Positions 6,858 through 39,940 of a stretch of 64,000 nt of DNA are shown piece by piece. Origin of the DNA: a virus (Duplodnaviria; Heunggongvirae; Uroviricota; Caudoviricetes); IMG/VR virus record IMGVR_UViG_3300024308_000004, positions 38,641-102,640 of that record, one strand, 5' to 3'. Below the pieces are notes generated by a model. It was given only the letters and a program-made list of their open reading frames with translations. It had not been told where the DNA came from and did no database searches. The translations under genes were made by a program, and so were the position numbers. How positions within the stretch are numbered: position 1 is the stretch's first letter; each line of letters starts with the position of its first letter.

Positions 6858-8039
6858 ATGTCCAATGAAGAAATGATTACCTGTCAGGTTCCGGGGTGCG
6901 GCGAAACTGCCCACATCATGGAACAGCATCTGGCGTCCAAGCACCCCGAGTACAACCTGGAACGCTATCAGGCGGAATTCCCGGGAGCCCCGATCATCTC
7001 CGAGAAGGCTCGCAAGGTTCTGGCAGCCCGTACAGCGAGCGCTCGCCCCGCAACGACGGCTGAACCGACAGCAACTACCGTCGCTGTCGCCAAGAAGACC
7101 GTACAGCGCAAGCCGTTCCACGAAGTCTTCGGCTTCTCCAAGACGGATCGCGCTGCATTGTCCGCAAAGGGCGCTCCGATCGGCATCCGCGTCTTCGAGC
7201 CGGATGAACTGACTCCGGAAGCTCGCGCAACGGTGCCGGACAAGGATTCGGACTACGTGTTCAACGTGGACCTGACCAAGACCGTTGTGATGGCTCTGGA
7301 AATGAACGTGCCGATTTATCTGCACGGTCATGCCGGTGTCGGCAAGTCGACCCTGCTGGAGCAGGTCGCGCATCACACCTATCGCGGCTACACCCGCGTA
7401 CAGCACACGGCCAACATGGAAGAAGCCGACGTTGAAGGTCGTTACATCGTCAACGCGAAGGGCGAAATGGAATTCCAGAACGGTCCGCTGACCGACGCGA
7501 TGGAGCAGGGTCTCCTGTACGTCGCCGACGAATACGACTTCGCTCCTCCGATGGTGCTGTCGGTGTATCAGGCAGTTCTGGAAGGCAAGCCGCTGTTCAT
7601 CAAGGCTGCGAACAAGAAGGTTGTACCGCATCAGAACTTCCGCTTCTGCGCAACGGGTAACACGAACGGTGCCGGTGATGAATCGGGCCTGTACCAGGGC
7701 ACGATGGTCCAGAACGCGGCCAACTACGAACGCTTCGGCGTCGTGGAGAAGGTGCAGTACATGCCGCAGAAGGACGAAATCGAAATGCTGGTGCGCAAGA
7801 CCAGTATCGCCCACGAAGATGCCAAGCGTATCGTGGACTTCGCCACCAAGATGCGTGAAGGCTTCGACAAGAACGACGTGGATATCCCCATGTCGCCGCG
7901 TGCAACCCTGAATGCTGCGAAGCTGGGTATGGCACGTAACGACATGTCGTTCGGCATCAAGGTCGCGTACATCAATCGTCTGCCTGCTCGCAGTGCGGAC
8001 GTTGCACGTCAGACTTCCCAGCGCGTCTTCGGTTCGTAA
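6858..8039 (+). CDS. AAA+ ATPase, MoxR/CobS-like
   Basis: Walker A HGHAGVGKSTL, Walker B LLYVADEYD, sensor region CATGNTNG. It is the typical partner of a vWA protein. N-terminal Cys/His cluster CQVPGCGETAH. Confidence 0.75.
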   Translation: MSNEEMITCQVPGCGETAHIMEQHLASKHPEYNLERYQAEFPGAPIISEKARKVLAARTASARPATTAEPTATTVAVAKKTVQRKPFHEVFGFSKTDRAALSAKGAPIGIRVFEPDELTPEARATVPDKDSDYVFNVDLTKTVVMALEMNVPIYLHGHAGVGKSTLLEQVAHHTYRGYTRVQHTANMEEADVEGRYIVNAKGEMEFQNGPLTDAMEQGLLYVADEYDFAPPMVLSVYQAVLEGKPLFIKAANKKVVPHQNFRFCATGNTNGAGDESGLYQGTMVQNAANYERFGVVEKVQYMPQKDEIEMLVRKTSIAHEDAKRIVDFATKMREGFDKNDVDIPMSPRATLNAAKLGMARNDMSFGIKVAYINRLPARSADVARQTSQRVFGS

Positions 8040-23390: not shown

Positions 23391-23466
23391 TGTGTGCGTT
23401 GACTGTATTGGTTCAGTCGCCTGATTGTGAGTCAGGAGCATGTGGGTTCAATTCCCATCGTACACC
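23391..23466 (+). tRNA. tRNA-His (anticodon GTG)
   Basis: Acceptor GTGTGCG/CGTACAC, D-stem GACT/AGTC, anticodon stem CCTGA/TCAGG with loop ttGTGag. T-arm GTGGG-TTCAATT-CCCAT. Position -1 is T, so no G-1 is encoded. C73. Confidence 0.7.
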
Positions 23467-23480
23467 CCTAAAGGTATTTA

Positions 23481-27080: not shown

Positions 27081-28040
27081 ATGGATCATTTCAAGGACGT
27101 GAAGGTTGTTGATTCATCCGACACGAACGTTTCCAAGTATGTGTTTGACATGGGCTCGGCAGTCGCCGAAGCCGTACTGTATAAGTACGGAACCTATGAA
27201 GAACGTACCGTGATCTGTTGCTCCACCCAGTCAGGCTGCCCCATCGGTTGCCGTTTCTGCGGAGCCGGTGATGCGTTCGTTCGTAACCTGTCTGCGGAAG
27301 AAATCGTCGCGCAGGTGGATCATTTGTTCGCGGATCGCAACATCGATCCAACCCAGGTCAAGCGTGGACAGATCATGTTCATGTCCATGGGTGAACCGTT
27401 GCTGAACCTCAAGCAACTGATCCCGGCGATGGAGGTCCTGTACGCCAAGTACCCCAACTTCGCGTTGCTGATTTCGACCAGCGCTCCGCGAGTGGATTTC
27501 ACGCCGTTGTTCCGGGCAGCCGCGCTCATTCCGACCATTGGTTTGCAGTTCAGCGTCCACGAATCTACCGACGAGGCGCGTGACCGGCTGATCCCGTTCA
27601 AGAACAAGTACACCATCGCCGAGATTGCCATCCTCGGTGATATTTTCCACACCACTACGGGGCGTCAGGCGTTCTTCAACTACTGCGCCCATACGGACAA
27701 CACCGCGCAGGAAGATGCTGACCGCATCCACGCGCTGTTCAATCCTGCATCCTTCCAGGCAACGGTTTCGGTCATCTGCGAGCGGGATGAGTCCATCGCT
27801 GCTGCGAACGAACGACAGCGCGAACTTGCTACGGGATTCATGGGTAAGCTCTTGCAAAAGGGTTATTCCGTTCGCACATTCGACCCTGCTGGTCAGGACG
27901 ACATTGGAGGTGGCTGTGGTCAACTCTGGTTCGTGCAGGATTGGATGCGTCAACACCCTGATCTGGCCCGACCGTCCGTCGGTCGCGGGCTGCCCACTGT
28001 TCACACTCCACGAGCCATCGACGTAAAGGTGATCGAATGA
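27081..28040 (+). CDS. Radical SAM RNA methyltransferase, RlmN/Cfr family
   Basis: Family-specific signature ICCSTQSGCPIGCRFCGAG (CxSxQxGC-x3-C-x2-C) and FMSMGEPLLN (RlmN GMGEPLxN). At 319 aa it is shorter than bacterial RlmN. Confidence 0.8.
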   Translation: MDHFKDVKVVDSSDTNVSKYVFDMGSAVAEAVLYKYGTYEERTVICCSTQSGCPIGCRFCGAGDAFVRNLSAEEIVAQVDHLFADRNIDPTQVKRGQIMFMSMGEPLLNLKQLIPAMEVLYAKYPNFALLISTSAPRVDFTPLFRAAALIPTIGLQFSVHESTDEARDRLIPFKNKYTIAEIAILGDIFHTTTGRQAFFNYCAHTDNTAQEDADRIHALFNPASFQATVSVICERDESIAAANERQRELATGFMGKLLQKGYSVRTFDPAGQDDIGGGCGQLWFVQDWMRQHPDLARPSVGRGLPTVHTPRAIDVKVIE

Positions 28041-28884: not shown

Positions 28885-29006
28885 GACCATAAGAAGTTCT
28901 GCTGTCCAACACCCGCATTAACGTGATGCCGGTGTAAGCAAAGTCCTAGTCGATTACCTCCTAGTTGCCGAATAGGACGGACAGGGCAGCAGAACTTCTT
29001 ATGGTC
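28885..29006. repeat. Perfect 20-bp inverted repeat forming a ~120-nt stem-loop (GACCATAAGAAGTTCTGCTG ... CAGCAGAACTTCTTATGGTC)
   Basis: Arms at 28885-28904 and 28987-29006 in a 310-nt noncoding region. The 3' arm abuts the GAGGAG RBS of the gene starting at 29019. Confidence 0.6.
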
Positions 29007-29018
29007 GAGGAGATTCAC

Positions 29019-29216
29019 ATGTCTGCCAAAGAAGTAGAACTGCCGCGCGGGGATACGTTTGATTCCCAGATGCGCAGGTACACCTTCAGTGAGGGTCAGG
29101 TGCGTGATATCCTGACCATCTATACCCAGAAACAGCAGGATGAAATTGATCGCCTGCGTTCTGAGGTTGACGGTTTGAAAATGAGTATCGCCCTTGCTGA
29201 AATGGGCGATGAATAA
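29019..29216 (+). CDS. Hypothetical protein
   Basis: ATG at 29019 after a GAGGAG RBS (in-frame ORF from 28965). Confidence 0.4.
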   Translation: MSAKEVELPRGDTFDSQMRRYTFSEGQVRDILTIYTQKQQDEIDRLRSEVDGLKMSIALAEMGDE

Positions 29217-29241: not shown

Positions 29242-29592
29242 ATGTCAAAGCCTGATGCGGCGTTGTTCGTTCTGGTAGGCAGGAAGCCGGCCTACAACAA
29301 GATTTTCTTGGCGCCAAAGTCCGCGTTGCAGTGGTGCTATAACGCGGACTACGGTGACCAGCCAATACCAAGGAACGTTCTTGGTGATCTGACACCGTTC
29401 CTGGACTCGGATTACGATGGCGATCCTGCAACGGACACGTTTGACATTACTCCGGGGTCTGCCGATAATGACGTAGCGCTGGCGTTGAGCCAAGTATGCC
29501 GCGCGTTCAAGAGTCCGATTGAAGCGATGGAATATGCGTTCGCGCATTACACCGTCAATTCGGCTGACTGCTACACGGGTCTGGAATATTGA
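29242..29592 (+). CDS. Hypothetical protein
   Basis: 116-aa ORF immediately upstream of the tmRNA gene. Confidence 0.5.
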   Translation: MSKPDAALFVLVGRKPAYNKIFLAPKSALQWCYNADYGDQPIPRNVLGDLTPFLDSDYDGDPATDTFDITPGSADNDVALALSQVCRAFKSPIEAMEYAFAHYTVNSADCYTGLEY

Positions 29593-29927
29593 CCTAGGTT
29601 TATGGTTGTATGACGTGAAGTGAAGGGTGCTTGGACGGTGGTTCAACTCCACCCAGGTCCACCACAAATCAGTCTTAGTCGAGGTGCCGGCGTTACTGGC
29701 TGAGACTGATTTGTAATGGGCCTGCCGGGTTTCGACAGGCGCAGATAGCAGAACCGACAACTAAGGGTAGGCACTCCTTGACGCACACGCGTCGATAGTC
29801 CACAATAAAACATAATCGCCAATGACGACATGTTTGTGGTGGCCCTCGCGGCCTGATCCACTGGGGTCTTGAACGACCTTATTACCCAATAGTTCACGAT
29901 AAGCCCGAGGTCCGCCTCGGGCTTTTT
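29593..29927 (+). ncRNA. ssrA: Circularly permuted (two-piece) tmRNA gene
   Basis: Acceptor piece ending ~29664 with T-arm GGTGG-TTCAACT-CCACC and CAGGTCC-A-CCA. Inter-piece hairpin 29665-29713. Coding piece starts at 29718 with GGGCCTGCCGGGTTTCGACAGG, so G3:U70 plus A73. Tag ORF 29818-29856 (ANDDMFVVALAA then stop). Terminator 29902-29927. Confidence 0.8.
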
Positions 29928-29987
29928 CGTTGTGCAGCATCCCATATTTAACCTAGATATAGTGATTGCACACACTGGAGAACGTCA

Positions 29988-30430
29988 TGACCACGTATGC
30001 AGTAGTTGATCCACGGGATATCCGTGACGACGCGGAGCAGGCTGAACTGGGCCTGACACGACTGCTCGGTATACGGTTCGAGGAACTTGCCGATGAAGTC
30101 TACGAGGACGAAGAAAACAATACCTTCGGATGGTTCGGTCTGCGTAAGGTCCAGAAGCGCTACAGCCGTCGCCAGATCGGTCAGTGGATGCAGGAAATCC
30201 TGAACGACGCACCACGCAGCAAGGACAATGGCATCCGCGATTACTGGTCAGCGCAAGGCACACAGTTCTCCTACGCTGGCTACAAGCATCACGTCATCGA
30301 TCCGGTACGTGACCTGATCCGTGCGGCGCGTGACCTGAACACGCAGGAACTACGCGTTGACGCGCGTACCATGCGTCTGTTTGAGGATGCGTATGCTGCG
30401 GGCGCTCGCCGTTACGAGCCCGAAGAATAA
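29988..30430 (+). CDS. Hypothetical protein
   Basis: ORF; start at ATG 29988 or 29966. Confidence 0.45.
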
Positions 30431-30460: not shown

Positions 30461-30967
30461 ATGAAAGCCATTCAGAAAATCATCCTCGACGGGTCGACCA
30501 CGCAAGTGAACCTGATCGACAACGATGCGGTCGAGGTCCACCACGTACCGCTCGCAGAGCTGCCGTTCTTCCTGATCGAACTGGCAGTGACGGACAAGGG
30601 CATCGATGCTGCCGCCACTGCGACGATCACTCACTCGCCGGAAATCGTACAGGCTATCCAGGACGTGAAGACTGCCCTGGCAGGTATCGGACTGGATGCA
30701 ACCACAGCAGGCGTGTTTGCAACGACCTTCTGCGGCGATACCCGGGACGAAATCACTGCCATGTCGGACTCGGTATTGAACGCCATCGCCAAGCTGCTGC
30801 GTGAATCTGGCTTCAAGTCCAAGGCGTTCGATGGACGTTCGTACACGGGCAATCTGACCTGTGTTGAATGGCTGGAAGGATTCCGTTACGGTTTCATCCG
30901 TGCGTCGGATGAAAAGCTCCAGCAGGAACTGGAAGGCATGTTGCAGCCCGAGATTGGTGCATGGTAA
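30461..30967 (+). CDS. Hypothetical protein
   Basis: 168-aa ORF. Confidence 0.45.
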   Translation: MKAIQKIILDGSTTQVNLIDNDAVEVHHVPLAELPFFLIELAVTDKGIDAAATATITHSPEIVQAIQDVKTALAGIGLDATTAGVFATTFCGDTRDEITAMSDSVLNAIAKLLRESGFKSKAFDGRSYTGNLTCVEWLEGFRYGFIRASDEKLQQELEGMLQPEIGAW

Positions 30968-38782: not shown

Positions 38783-39940
38783 ATGTGTATCTCCGAACTG
38801 CATGGTGGCCGTATCAAGCTGTGGACTCCGATCCACGAGGTTGAATCGGCTGCCCTGGACCAACTCAAGAACATCGCCAACCTGCCGTGGATGTTCAAGC
38901 ATGTGGCAGCGATGCCGGATGTTCACTTCGGCAAGGGTGCGACCGTGGGCAGCGTCATCGCCATGCAAAACGCCGTGTCGCCTGCTGCGGTAGGTGTTGA
39001 CATTGGTTGTGGCATGGGTGCCGTGCTGACGAACCTGACTGCAAAAGACCTGCCGGAATCGCTGCGTGAAATCCGTGCGCAGATCGAACGGGACGTGCCG
39101 GTCGGCTTCAACCGTCATGATTCCGGTCTGACGTTGGGTGCCAAGTCTGTCATGCACACCTTCAAGGACCTGCGTGCGCCCGTATCCACCGTCGAAAAGA
39201 CGGCTCACTGTCAGATCGGTACGTTGGGTGGTGGTAACCACTTCATCGAAATCTGTCTGGACACTACCGACCGCGTGTGGGTGGTGTTGCATTCGGGTTC
39301 GCGCAACATCGGCAAGACGTTGGCTGAGCATCACATCGCCATCGCACGCAAGCTGATCCACAACGAGACCCTGCCGGACCGAGACCTGGCTGTGTTCCTG
39401 CGTGGCACCAAGGAGATAGATGATTATCGCCATGACCTGATGTGGGCGCAGCAGTACGCGTTTGAGAACCGCGCCCACATGAAGGAACTGGTGATGGCTG
39501 CGATCAAGCGGCATATTCCGCATCTGTCCGAAGTGGATTACATCGCGTGTCACCACAACTACGTGTCCGAAGAAACTCACTTCGGCGAAGACGTAATCGT
39601 GACCCGCAAAGGCGCGATTTATGCTGGTCGTGGCGTGTACGGGATCATCCCGGGTTCAATGGGCACCAAGTCGTACATCGTCCGTGGCCTGGGCAACGAG
39701 GAATCGTACTGCTCGGCATCACACGGCGCTGGTCGTCGCATGTCGCGTGGCGCCGCAAAGCGTGCGTTCACCAAGGAAGACCTGGCCGAGCAAACCCAGG
39801 GCGTTGAGTGCCGCAAGGATGAAGGTGTGATCGATGAAATCCCGGCAGCATACAAGGATATCGATCAGGTGATGGAGAACCAGAAGGACCTGGTCGAAGT
39901 CGTGGCTGAACTCAAACAGGTCATGTGCGTAAAGGGGTAA
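38783..39940 (+). CDS. rtcB: RtcB-family RNA 3'-phosphate/5'-OH ligase
   Basis: Signature HFGKGATVGSV, metal-binding C (DIGCGMG), GGGNHFIEI, HSGSRNIG, and an HHNY region containing the catalytic His. Confidence 0.85.
   Translation: MCISELHGGRIKLWTPIHEVESAALDQLKNIANLPWMFKHVAAMPDVHFGKGATVGSVIAMQNAVSPAAVGVDIGCGMGAVLTNLTAKDLPESLREIRAQIERDVPVGFNRHDSGLTLGAKSVMHTFKDLRAPVSTVEKTAHCQIGTLGGGNHFIEICLDTTDRVWVVLHSGSRNIGKTLAEHHIAIARKLIHNETLPDRDLAVFLRGTKEIDDYRHDLMWAQQYAFENRAHMKELVMAAIKRHIPHLSEVDYIACHHNYVSEETHFGEDVIVTRKGAIYAGRGVYGIIPGSMGTKSYIVRGLGNEESYCSASHGAGRRMSRGAAKRAFTKEDLAEQTQGVECRKDEGVIDEIPAAYKDIDQVMENQKDLVEVVAELKQVMCVKG

What the first reader, a model, noticed from the sequence alone, without database searches (positions are those of the whole stretch)
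29593..29927. Phage-encoded circularly permuted (two-piece) tmRNA
A T-arm and acceptor 3' strand ending in A-CCA lie upstream of, not downstream of, a segment that begins like the canonical tmRNA 5' end. The T-arm GGTGG-TTCAACT-CCACC, acceptor strand CAGGTCC and A-CCA end at 29664. A hairpin follows at 29665-29713. At 29718 the sequence GGGCCTGCCGGGTTTCGACAGG begins, closely matching the canonical tmRNA 5' end GGGGCUGAUUCUGGAUUCGACGGG. GGGCCUG pairs with CAGGUCC, giving the alanine identity elements G3:U70 and A73. An in-frame tag ORF starts at 29818 (GCC AAT GAC GAC ATG TTT GTG GTG GCC CTC GCG GCC TGA), preceded by AUAAUC (compare AUAGUC before the E. coli resume codon). It encodes ANDDMFVVALAA with the classic ALAA degron end. 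A strong terminator follows at 29902-29927. The piece order (acceptor first, coding second) is the permutation known from alpha-proteobacteria, a beta-proteobacterial lineage and marine cyanobacteria. Together with the tRNA-His lacking an encoded G-1 and the type IVa pilin, it also constrains the likely host.
Basis: partly seen in the sequence, partly recalled or inferred. Interest (0 to 1): 0.85.

Follow-up and report, generated by a model that had tools for sequence, protein, structure and literature searches.

The report
Phage two-piece tmRNA gene, confirmed
This is a real, complete gene for a two-piece ribosome-rescue RNA (tmRNA) carried by a Stenotrophomonas-type phage; such phage genes are already known, but this one is a different form from its host's own one-piece tmRNA.

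Summary
ARAGORN calls a permuted tmRNA (tag ANDDMFVVALAA). Rfam tmRNA_permuted scores 88 bits against a threshold of 47. The best lineage-specific model is beta_tmRNA, at 82.6 bits against a threshold of 84.

The helices that join the two pieces are 99.5% paired across 35 related sequences. 11 of 25 pairs show double changes, and G3:U70 is invariant.

The window comes from a phage about 85% identical to Stenotrophomonas phage BUCTxx99. Xanthomonas phage JGB6 also carries the gene. It is unannotated in both. The syntenic phage ANB28 has a different cassette in its place.

The same "beta-type" permuted tmRNA occurs in at least five other Stenotrophomonas and Xanthomonas phage lineages. It is annotated and published for phage Marzo. 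It also occurs in 62 IMG/VR contigs. Two-piece tmRNAs in phages were surveyed in 2022. So this is a new member of a known kind.

The S. maltophilia-type ssrA I recovered is a standard one-piece gene with tag ANDDNYALAA.

Most likely mechanism, inferred: RNase P and 3' trimming remove the spacer hairpin. The two pieces pair, host AlaRS and SmpB act on them, and stalled ribosomes are rescued with an ALAA degron during infection. No smpB was found in the window. Interest is modest.

The parts
29604..29664 (+). Acceptor piece. Contains the 3' strands of the P2 helices (GGTTGT 29604-29609; GTGCTTG 29627-29633), the T-arm (29637-29653), the acceptor 3' strand CAGGTCC (29654-29660), and A73 plus an encoded CCA (29661-29664).
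   Evidence: Rfam RF04321 alignment, ARAGORN, and covariation of all four helices.
29665..29717 (+). Intervening spacer. It forms a long hairpin that extends the acceptor stem and ends in TAAT just before G1. It is presumed to be excised by RNase P and 3' trimming.
   Evidence: The MFE fold shows about 17 bp stacked on the acceptor stem. Spacer length is free among relatives: about 4 nt in BUCTxx99, 53 nt here, 86 nt in JGB6, and 4-207 nt overall, while both flanks stay conserved.
29718..29928 (+). Coding piece. Contains the 5' acceptor strand GGGCCTG (29718-29724, with G3 pairing U29658), the D-loop analogue CCGGGTTTCGA (29725-29735), the P2 5' strands CAGGCGC (29736-29742) and ACAACT (29757-29762), PK1, the tag ORF, the 3' pseudoknot and the terminator.
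29763..29801 (+). Candidate pseudoknot PK1. S1 is AAGG 29763-29766 with CCTT 29776-29779. S2 is GG(c)ACT 29770-29775 with AGTCC 29797-29801. A hairpin ACGC-ACAC-GCGT (29781-29792) is inserted in the loop.
   Evidence: RNAalifold predicts S2 and the inserted hairpin. S1 is read from the sequence. It carries one double change (G-C here, U-A in JGB6) and one single change (U.G to C-G). With only three sequences this remains a candidate.
29818..29856 (+). Tag reading frame: resume codon GCC, then ANDDMFVVALAA and stop. It is preceded by UAAUC, which has U at -5 and A at -4 as in E. coli UAGUC (the E. coli comparison is from memory).
   Evidence: ARAGORN. The relatives encode ANDDVYVVALAA and ANDSYFEVALAA, with synonymous changes at the conserved residues.
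29863..29896 (+). 3' H-type pseudoknot. S1 is GGGG 29863-29866 with CCTT 29877-29880. S2 is TGAAC 29870-29874 with GTTCA 29892-29896. The loop ATTACCCAATA carries the family-wide UUACC(C)AA motif.
   Evidence: The S2 stem is in the RF01850 model alignment. Both stems differ but stay complementary in YB07 (CAGGA/UCCUG; CGCCAG/CUGGCG), in IMG/VR contigs L122, L146 and L152, and in Rhodocyclaceae. This was read from sequences lined up on the UUACC motif.
29901..29928 (+). Intrinsic terminator: a 10-bp GC-rich stem, a 4-nt loop and a T run. It is the probable 3' end of the coding piece.
   Evidence: Terminator scan and the terminal hairpin of the RF01850 model.
29441..29469 (+). Possible promoter TTGACA-17-GATAAT inside the upstream ORF. 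A weaker extended -10 candidate, TGGAATATT, lies at 29582-29590. Which one drives the gene, if either, is unknown.
   Evidence: The consensus scan matches 11 of 12 positions. The region just upstream of the gene is not conserved in BUCTxx99 or JGB6.

Best explanation
Positions 29604-29928 (+) hold a complete, selectively maintained gene for a two-piece tmRNA of the beta-proteobacterial type. It is carried as an accessory cassette in the tRNA-rich early region of a virulent Stenotrophomonas/Xanthomonas-type phage.

Shown:
- the gene order is acceptor piece, spacer, coding piece;
- the two pieces can pair through a 7-bp acceptor stem and two P2 helices, and these covary across relatives;
- the alanine identity pair G3:U70 and A73-CCA are present;
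- the tag frame ends in ALAA.

Inferred mechanism: a single precursor is made. RNase P cuts 5' of G29718 and 3' trimming exposes the encoded CCA at 29664, which removes the spacer hairpin. The two RNAs stay base-paired. Host AlaRS charges them and host SmpB and EF-Tu deliver them to stalled ribosomes. Translation resumes at GCC 29818 and appends ANDDMFVVALAA. Its ANDD start and ALAA end match the host tag ANDDNYALAA, so host ClpXP-type proteases should recognise it.

The likely benefit to the phage is extra ribosome-rescue capacity during infection, alongside its 12 tRNAs and the RtcB RNA ligase. The gene is dispensable, because the relative ANB28 lacks it.
For: Detection: ARAGORN calls a permuted tmRNA with tag ANDDMFVVALAA. 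RF04321 scores 88 bits against a threshold of 47. RF01850 is the best model in its clan at 82.6 bits. It scores 94.7 in JGB6 and 103.7 in DLP_6, both above the threshold of 84.

Structure: across 35 sequences the four helices are 99.5% paired, against 85.6% in shuffles and 46-52% when the partner is slid. 11 of 25 pairs have double changes. G:U at acceptor position 3 is 35 of 35.

Within the window group, acceptor pairs 4 and 5 and T-stem pairs 2 and 3 change on both sides.

Tag: ANDDMFVVALAA, ANDDVYVVALAA and ANDSYFEVALAA keep the frame and the ALAA end, with synonymous changes.

Spacer: its length is free, from 4 to 207 nt.

Other support:
- The precursor fold has z = -5.8.
- The terminator is present.
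- The context is a phage: 84.5% identity to BUCTxx99 over 81% of 20 kb, 12 tRNA genes and RtcB at 415 bits.
- The host-type ssrA is one-piece with tag ANDDNYALAA.
- Precedent exists in PMC8928761 and PMC9004378.
Against: - There are no expression, processing, charging or tagging data.
- RF01850 falls 1.4 bits short of its threshold in the window itself.
- PK1 rests on three sequences and one double change.
- No conserved promoter was found.
- No smpB is in the 64-kb window (using a query recalled from memory). The RNA must therefore work with a heterologous host SmpB that evolved with a one-piece tmRNA.
- ANB28 lacks the gene, so any benefit is conditional.
Confidence: 0.85

Rival explanations
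1. Decoy or inhibitor. The RNA mainly titrates host SmpB or blocks host trans-translation rather than tagging proteins, as proposed for the TLD-only tmRNA of mycobacteriophage DS6A.
For: A TLD-only phage tmRNA that inhibits tmRNA is described in PMC4131195 and PMC11915505. No smpB was found in the window.
Against: The full coding piece is kept. The tag frame, the resume context and the ALAA end are conserved, with synonymous changes, across sequences about 20-40% divergent. The 3' pseudoknot is conserved with covarying stems. A decoy would not need any of these.
Confidence: 0.07
2. Decaying passenger. The gene was recently captured and drifts without function.
For: It sits in a hypervariable cassette region and is absent from ANB28. 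The upstream ORFs differ between relatives.
Against: Compensatory changes keep every helix. The gene is retained in phages as far apart as the window and JGB6 (about 80% identity in the gene, 77% in the few alignable flanks). It recurs in at least six phage lineages.
Confidence: 0.05
3. Host ssrA fragment or attP site left by integration at the host tmRNA gene.
For: Prophages often integrate at ssrA. The S. maltophilia ssrA borders 23 IMG/VR proviral contigs.
Against: The host gene is one-piece, has the opposite order of parts and differs in sequence outside the universally conserved T-arm. The phage gene is complete. Relatives are reported to lack an integrase (PMC11881566).
Confidence: 0.01
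4. The region encodes a protein, for example the minus-strand ORFs 29643-29975 or 29245-29760. Some GenBank relatives annotate a hypothetical protein here.
For: Mechanical ORFs exist here. JGB6, BUDD, QDWS359 and Moby carry 'hypothetical protein' CDSs over the homologous region.
Against: The substitutions follow RNA pairing, not codons. Spacer indels of 4 to 86 nt would destroy any such ORF. I did not scan the minus-strand ORFs themselves against Pfam or PHROGs.
Confidence: 0.01

Closest known systems
tmRNA of Stenotrophomonas myophages of genus Menderavirus (Marzo, YB07, IME-SM1, Moby, Mendera). Described for Marzo as 'SsrA Betaproteobacter-class tmRNA' (PMC8928761).
   Same: It is permuted and beta-type: ARAGORN tmRNA*, RF04321 102 bits, RF01850 79 bits on a stretch cut at the 5' end. 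It shares the ATGGTTGTATGA start, an encoded CCA, a hairpin spacer, the UUACC-loop 3' pseudoknot and an ANDD...xAA tag of 12-13 residues. It sits among tRNA-Pro, tRNA-Leu and tRNA-Thr genes, as in the window. The host genus is the same.
   Different: Identity is only about 62%. The virus lineage is different (160-kb T4-like myovirus against a roughly 108-kb siphovirus group). It has no terminator of its own and runs straight into tRNA-Thr. PK1 has a different sequence. The tag ends in RIAA.
Two-piece tmRNA of Rhodocyclaceae, the 'third lineage' of Sharkady & Williams 2004 (reference recalled from memory; the paper is not held in the library). Rfam RF01850 beta_tmRNA.
   Same: The order of pieces, the helices and the 3' pseudoknot with the CCUUGUUACC loop are the same. 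beta_tmRNA is the best-scoring lineage model.
   Different: Identity is about 55%. The cellular tag is 10 residues, ANDERFA(L/I)AA. CCA is encoded in only 4 of 47 cellular genes but in 7 of 7 phage isolates. The leader before G1 is GGGT or AGGT there, against TGAT or TAAT in phages. PK1 in the window group has an extra hairpin. The carrier here is a phage of a host with a one-piece tmRNA.
Alpha-type two-piece tmRNAs of marine phages: OM43 phage Melnitz and pelagiphages (PMC9004378).
   Same: They are phage-borne permuted tmRNAs. In Melnitz the form also differs from that of the host. That paper counts 53 two-piece structures among 133 unique phage tmRNA structures.
   Different: They belong to the alphaproteobacterial lineage, sit in marine myophages, and some carry a glutamine riboswitch. 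The sequences are unrelated beyond the tRNA-like domain.
One-piece tmRNAs of mycobacteriophages (Bxz1 group) and Bacillus phage G (PMC4131195).
   Same: They are phage-encoded ssrA genes, usually near tRNA clusters, with no phage smpB reported.
   Different: They have the standard, non-permuted gene form.
Host-type S. maltophilia ssrA.
   Same: The T-arm and acceptor end are nearly identical (GGACGGCGGTTCAATTCCGCCCACCTCCACCA). The tag starts with ANDD and ends with ALAA.
   Different: It is one-piece, 354 nt, with four-pseudoknot-sized spacing and a 10-residue tag ANDDNYALAA. The order of parts is opposite.

Membership tests
tmRNA (SsrA) | 7-bp acceptor stem with G3:U70, discriminator A73 and a CCA end | tested here: met
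   GGGCCUG pairs with CAGGUCC, followed by ACCA. The G:U pair at position 3 is present in 35 of 35 relatives, and pairs 4 and 5 covary.
tmRNA (SsrA) | T-arm (5 bp, 7-nt TPsiC-type loop) and a D-loop analogue GG.UUCGAC, with no anticodon arm | tested here: met
   GGUGG-UUCAACU-CCACC and CCGGGUUUCGAC. The columns are invariant or covarying in alignment A2.
tmRNA (SsrA) | Internal tag frame that starts at a GCN resume codon and ends in a hydrophobic xAA plus stop | tested here: met
   GCC...ALAA-TGA at 29818-29856. The frame is conserved in relatives, with synonymous changes.
tmRNA (SsrA) | Pseudoknot (PK1) just upstream of the resume codon | tested here: inconclusive
   A candidate lies at 29763-29801. 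S2 and the inserted hairpin are predicted. S1 shows one double change against JGB6. Only three sequences share this PK1 version, plus one metagenome fragment with an identical PK1.
tmRNA (SsrA) | Score above the curated covariance-model threshold | tested here: met
   RF04321 scores 88 bits against 47.
tmRNA (SsrA) | Charged with alanine, bound by SmpB, and acts in trans-translation | not testable with these tools
   This needs biochemistry or infected-cell proteomics. No smpB is detectable in the window.
Permuted (two-piece) tmRNA | Gene order is acceptor piece (ending in CCA), then spacer, then coding piece (starting with the 5' acceptor strand) | tested here: met
   29604-29664, 29665-29717 and 29718-29928.
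Permuted (two-piece) tmRNA | The pieces are held together by an inter-piece acceptor stem and P2 helices | tested here: met
   The four helices are 98.8-100% paired, and 11 of 25 pairs have double changes.
Permuted (two-piece) tmRNA | The precursor is cleaved into two mature RNAs | not testable with these tools
   Inferred from the length-free spacer hairpin. It needs Northern blots or RNA end mapping.
beta_tmRNA (RF01850) subtype | Reaches the family's gathering score | tested here: inconclusive
   The window scores 82.6 against 84. The orthologue in JGB6 scores 94.7, and DLP_6 scores 103.7. It is the best model in its clan in every case.
beta_tmRNA (RF01850) subtype | 3' pseudoknot with the CCUUGUUACC-type loop, followed by a terminal hairpin | tested here: met
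   Model alignment. The motif is shared, and both stems remain complementary with different sequences across lineages.
beta_tmRNA (RF01850) subtype | It is the resident, sole ssrA of a betaproteobacterial (Rhodocyclaceae) genome | tested here: not met
   The carrier is a phage whose relatives infect Stenotrophomonas and Xanthomonas. The host-type ssrA is one-piece.

The most novel reading that the evidence does not exclude
The 'beta-type' two-piece tmRNA may be primarily a phage-borne gene family. It would move as a cassette between unrelated phages whose hosts use one-piece tmRNA. The cellular copies would then descend from capture of a phage gene rather than the reverse. Those copies are the sole ssrA of Rhodocyclaceae (the classical 'third lineage') and the extra permuted genes in Cupriavidus.

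The evidence is compatible but weak. Viral sequences are much more diverse than the tight Rhodocyclaceae cluster. In an outgroup-rooted NJ tree that cluster sits inside the viral diversity. The Cupriavidus copies have the phage-type traits of an encoded CCA and a UGAU leader.

The rooting, the pattern-based sampling and the faster evolution of phages could all produce the same picture.
Probability: 0.15. Interest if true: 0.65.

Novelty: new member of a known kind. Interest (0 to 1): 0.3.

Why it matters
For annotation: the gene is missing from the GenBank records of the closest phages (BUCTxx99, JGB6). In several other Xanthomonadaceae phages it is overlaid by spurious 'hypothetical protein' CDSs. 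It should be annotated as ssrA.

For biology: a two-piece tmRNA is kept by many unrelated phages of hosts that use a one-piece tmRNA. This implies that the permuted form works with heterologous SmpB, AlaRS and RNase P.

For experiments: ANB28 is a natural null relative. That gives a tractable system for asking what a phage gains from its own ribosome-rescue RNA, which has not been tested in the literature I found. The tmRNA form should not be used to predict the host.

Tried and rejected
1. IMG/VR scans with three patterns specific to the window group found nothing.
2. A genome-contig scan with the group-specific pattern also found nothing. No close cellular donor turned up among the 185,579 species-representative genomes, for that pattern.
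3. BLAST of the Cupriavidus permuted gene against the phage collection gave only a weak cyanophage hit.
4. I searched the supplements of the tmRNA database paper for phage or Xanthomonadales entries. Nothing is held as text.
5. The Sharkady & Williams 2004 paper is not held in the library.
6. tblastn for SmpB on the window gave a best E of 0.21, so no gene was found. The query was E. coli SmpB recalled from memory, so a very divergent smpB is not excluded.
7. Pfam and PHROGs scans of the flanking ORFs 28965-29216, 29242-29592, 29987-30430 and 30461-30967 gave no family. The neighbours give no functional clue.
8. The window's upstream ORF is not a homologue of the ANB28 'endonuclease VII' ORF.
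9. The promoter search gave no conserved promoter.
10. The metagenome scan for the group's PK1 found one truncated BUCTxx99-like contig. Its PK1 is identical but its tRNA-like domain is different, so it added no PK1 covariation.
11. The weak Rfam hits at E > 0.01 (mir-2329, MicX, MicC, suhB and others) are chance matches to the spacer or terminator hairpins.

Full report
**Observation.** I read 29400-30100.
- T-arm: GGTGG-TTCAACT-CCACC, 29637-29653.
- Acceptor 3' strand CAGGTCC, 29654-29660.
- A-CCA ending at 29664.
- A hairpin filling 29665-29717.
- GGGCCTGCCGGGTTTCGACAGG starting at 29718.
- The frame GCC AAT GAC GAC ATG TTT GTG GTG GCC CTC GCG GCC TGA at 29818-29856.
- A terminator at 29901-29924 followed by a T run.

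ARAGORN independently calls a permuted tmRNA (tmRNA*) at 29572-29947 with tag ANDDMFVVALAA. Rfam's tmRNA_permuted model (RF04321) matches 29604-29856 end to end at 88 bits, E = 1.6e-15, against a gathering score of 47. The whole precursor folds with z = -5.8 relative to shuffles. The minimum-energy structure contains the T-arm, the acceptor stem formed between the two pieces, and a spacer hairpin of about 17 bp stacked on that stem.

**What the window is.** A 20-kb stretch around the gene is 84.5% identical over 81% of its length to Stenotrophomonas phage BUCTxx99. It is 84.6% identical over 72% to Stenotrophomonas phage ANB28. Short parts are 77% identical to Xanthomonas phage JGB6. ANB28 is described as a 108-kb siphovirus with no integrase (PMC11881566).

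The gene lies in a plus-strand region of small ORFs with 12 tRNA genes. An RtcB RNA ligase lies at 38783-39940 (415 bits). A Band-7 protein and a metallophosphoesterase are also present. The immediate neighbours have no Pfam or PHROG family.

BUCTxx99 and JGB6 carry the orthologous gene, with tags ANDDVYVVALAA and ANDSYFEVALAA. Neither record annotates it. In ANB28 the flanks are conserved, but an unrelated 100-aa ORF annotated 'endonuclease VII' occupies the place of the tmRNA cassette. The gene is therefore an accessory cassette.

**Is the RNA under selection as a tmRNA?** Among the three orthologues, several pairs change on both sides while staying paired.
- Acceptor stem: GGGCCUG/CAGGUCC here, GGGGAUG/CAUCUCC in BUCTxx99, GGGGCUG/CAGCUCC in JGB6.
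- T-stem: GGUGG/CCACC, GGCGG/CCGCC, GCGGG/CCCGC.

I then assembled 35 non-redundant relatives (see below) and counted pairs for four helices: outer P2, inner P2, T-stem and acceptor. 99.5% of cells are paired, against 85.6% in column shuffles and 46-52% when the partner is slid by 1-3 columns. 11 of 25 pairs show double changes. The G:U pair at acceptor position 3 is present in 35 of 35.

The tag frame keeps its length, its ANDx start and its ALAA end. Conserved residues carry synonymous changes: AAT/AAC, GAC/GAT, GTG/GTC, GCC/GCG.

The spacer between CCA and G1 behaves as excised sequence. It is about 4 nt in BUCTxx99, 53 nt here and 86 nt in JGB6. Across the family it ranges from 4 to 207 nt. 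It nearly always forms a hairpin and ends in UGAU or UAAU.

Two pseudoknot candidates exist.
- *The 3' pseudoknot (29863-29896).* It has the architecture S1a-S2a-S1b-UUACC(C)AA-S2b. Both stems have different but complementary sequences in YB07, in IMG/VR contigs L122, L146 and L152, and in Rhodocyclaceae. Its S2 stem is part of the RF01850 model.
- *PK1 (29763-29801).* It is plausible: RNAalifold predicts S2 and an inserted hairpin, and S1 has one double change in JGB6. It rests on three sequences.

**Which kind of permuted tmRNA?** Within the tRNA clan the best Rfam model is beta_tmRNA (RF01850). It scores 82.6 bits here, just under the gathering score of 84. It scores 94.7 in JGB6 and 103.7 in Stenotrophomonas phage DLP_6.

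A degenerate pattern for the acceptor piece, scanned over one genome per bacterial species, returned mainly Rhodocyclaceae: Dechloromonas, Accumulibacter, Propionivibrio, Thauera, Azospira and Rhodocyclus. All have permuted genes with the tag ANDERFA(L/I)AA. Six Cupriavidus genomes have the tag ANDEKFALAA. A few one-piece actinobacterial genes also matched. No Xanthomonadales matched.

The window's gene is only about 55% identical to these. A search with a group-specific pattern found no cellular copy. The gene is a deep member of the beta-type family, not a recent capture from a sampled bacterium and not an independent permutation. It shares the idiosyncratic 3' pseudoknot loop with that family.

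**How common is it in phages?** BLAST with the YB07 copy and ARAGORN/Rfam on the hits show the same type of gene in several lineages.
- Genus Menderavirus: Marzo, YB07, IME-SM1, Mendera, Moby, BUCT608, Ps15, Yut2, Yut3 and Bhz51.
- DLP_6.
- Xanthomonas phages BUDD and X1.
- Xanthomonas phage Rb1.
- Stenotrophomonas phage QDWS359.

With the window's own group that makes six phage lineages infecting Stenotrophomonas or Xanthomonas. [quoted passage not shown] Several records annotate it, but most do not, or they place a hypothetical CDS over it.

A relaxed pattern found 62 IMG/VR contigs, and ARAGORN calls every one a permuted tmRNA. A 2022 survey counted 53 two-piece structures among 133 unique phage tmRNA structures. 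It also described a phage (Melnitz) whose alpha-type two-piece tmRNA does not match its host's form (PMC9004378). The tmRNA database lists 79 phage sequences (PMC11915505). The kind is known, and this is a further, previously unannotated member.

**Host inference.** I tested this. The S. maltophilia-specific ssrA probe and primers of PMC4342816 all map inside one gene that borders 23 IMG/VR proviral contigs. ARAGORN calls that gene a standard one-piece tmRNA of 354 nt with tag ANDDNYALAA, or a 393-nt variant with tag ANDDNYAPVALAA. The paper's sequencing primers sit on the 5' end and on the T-arm in the convergent orientation, which only a one-piece gene allows.

So these phages carry a two-piece tmRNA while the host uses a one-piece one, and the form does not predict the host. 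The phage tag resembles the host tag at both functional ends (ANDD... and ...ALAA). That fits use of the host's proteolysis adaptors. This last point is an inference from E. coli SspB/ClpX knowledge.

**Mechanism.**
*Shown:* the gene order, the inter-piece helices, the alanine identity elements, the tag frame, the terminator and the length-free spacer.
*Inferred:*
1. One precursor is transcribed. The promoter is unknown. Candidates are TTGACA-17-GATAAT at 29441-29469 and TGGAATATT at 29582-29590. Neither is conserved in relatives.
2. RNase P cuts before G29718.
3. 3' trimming stops at the encoded CCA.
4. The two RNAs remain paired.
5. Host AlaRS, SmpB and EF-Tu use them. No smpB was detected in the window.
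6. Stalled ribosomes resume on GCC 29818, and the product is degraded through the ALAA end.

The probable benefit is extra ribosome-rescue capacity while the phage overloads or damages host translation, alongside the tRNA set and RtcB. I put 0.85 on 'a functional two-piece tmRNA gene' and about 0.6-0.7 on this specific physiological role.

The rivals are a decoy, a drifting passenger, an att fragment and a protein-coding region. Each is contradicted by the conserved tag frame, by the compensatory changes, by the different form of the host gene or by the spacer indels.

**A more speculative reading.** In a neighbour-joining tree rooted with the re-ordered host gene, the Rhodocyclaceae sequences form one tight cluster. 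It lies next to the clade of Xanthomonadaceae phages and inside a much more diverse set of viral sequences.

Phage-isolate genes always encode CCA (7 of 7) and mostly have a UGAU leader (5 of 7). The Cupriavidus copies share both traits in all 7. Rhodocyclaceae genes mostly do not (CCA in 4 of 47). For the IMG/VR contigs the CCA was required by the search pattern, so it says nothing there.

This is compatible with the beta-type gene being mainly a phage family that cells have captured. Sampling by pattern, p-distance NJ, uncertain rooting and fast phage evolution could each give the same picture. I give it 0.15.

**Verdict.** The finding is real and correctly interpreted. It is a new member of a known kind. 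It has annotation value, and the mismatch between phage and host tmRNA form is modestly interesting. The host inference is wrong. Interest 0.3.

Noticed in passing
L021, L033, L039, L048, L053, L075 (Cupriavidus genomes); for example L033 3266-3597 (-): Six Cupriavidus genomes carry a permuted tmRNA with tag ANDEKFALAA. It has the phage-type traits of an encoded CCA and a UGAU leader. In L033 the neighbours include ordinary chromosomal genes (enolase-superfamily, LysR), not an obvious prophage. The same tag is the commonest among the 62 IMG/VR contigs. Whether these genomes also hold a standard ssrA was not checked.
   Followed up: partly
L003 (ANB28) 7100-7402, compared with window 29242-29960: The syntenic phage ANB28 has an unrelated 100-aa ORF annotated 'endonuclease VII' in place of the tmRNA cassette. 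Homology resumes about 30 nt before the next ORF's start codon. The window's upstream ORF 29242-29592 is also unique to it. This is a cassette-swapping hotspot.
   Followed up: partly
L002 3905-4069 (-), L178 551-871, L181 693-1271 (-), and Moby (H38): GenBank records of JGB6, BUDD, QDWS359 and Moby place 'hypothetical protein' CDSs over the permuted tmRNA gene. BUCTxx99, YB07, IME-SM1, DLP_6, Rb1 and X1 leave it unannotated.
   Followed up: yes
Window 23392-23468: The tRNA-His gene is 92-93% identical to the tRNA-His of Menderavirus myophages, although the two phage groups are otherwise unrelated. Both groups also place the tmRNA among tRNA-Pro(tgg), tRNA-Leu and tRNA-Thr(tgt) genes. This suggests exchange of tRNA and tmRNA modules between phages of one host.
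   Followed up: partly
Window 27081-28040 (+): This 319-aa ORF gives a weak radical-SAM hit (28.9 bits against a cut-off of 29.5). Its homologue is annotated 'prohibitin family protein' in BUCTxx99 and 'rRNA large subunit methyltransferase N' in ANB28. An RlmN-like RNA methylase inside the tRNA region would be of interest, but this is unverified.
   Followed up: no
Window 38783-39940 (+): A full-length RtcB RNA ligase (415 bits) lies about 9 kb downstream of the tmRNA, in the same plus-strand block as the tRNA genes. It may form an RNA-repair and translation-maintenance module.
   Followed up: partly
L182 2766-2941 (metagenome contig JACCDR011529806.1): This BUCTxx99-like contig has an identical upstream flank and an identical PK1. 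Its acceptor piece, inner P2 helix and resume region (GCA AAC GA...) are different. This suggests mosaic recombination inside the tmRNA gene. The contig ends within the tag.
   Followed up: no
L134 (IMG/VR contig), spacer of 161 nt; L005-L090 (Rhodocyclaceae): Spacer length in the family ranges from 4 to 207 nt. Most cellular Rhodocyclaceae genes (43 of 47) end ...CCACC without an encoded final A, so they would need CCA completion. All 7 phage-isolate genes encode CCA.
   Followed up: partly
L100 12944-13336, L104 11390-11782: Some S. maltophilia-type one-piece ssrA genes are 393 nt and encode a longer tag, ANDDNYAPVALAA, instead of ANDDNYALAA. In length this host-side tag variant resembles the 12-14-residue phage tags.
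   Followed up: no
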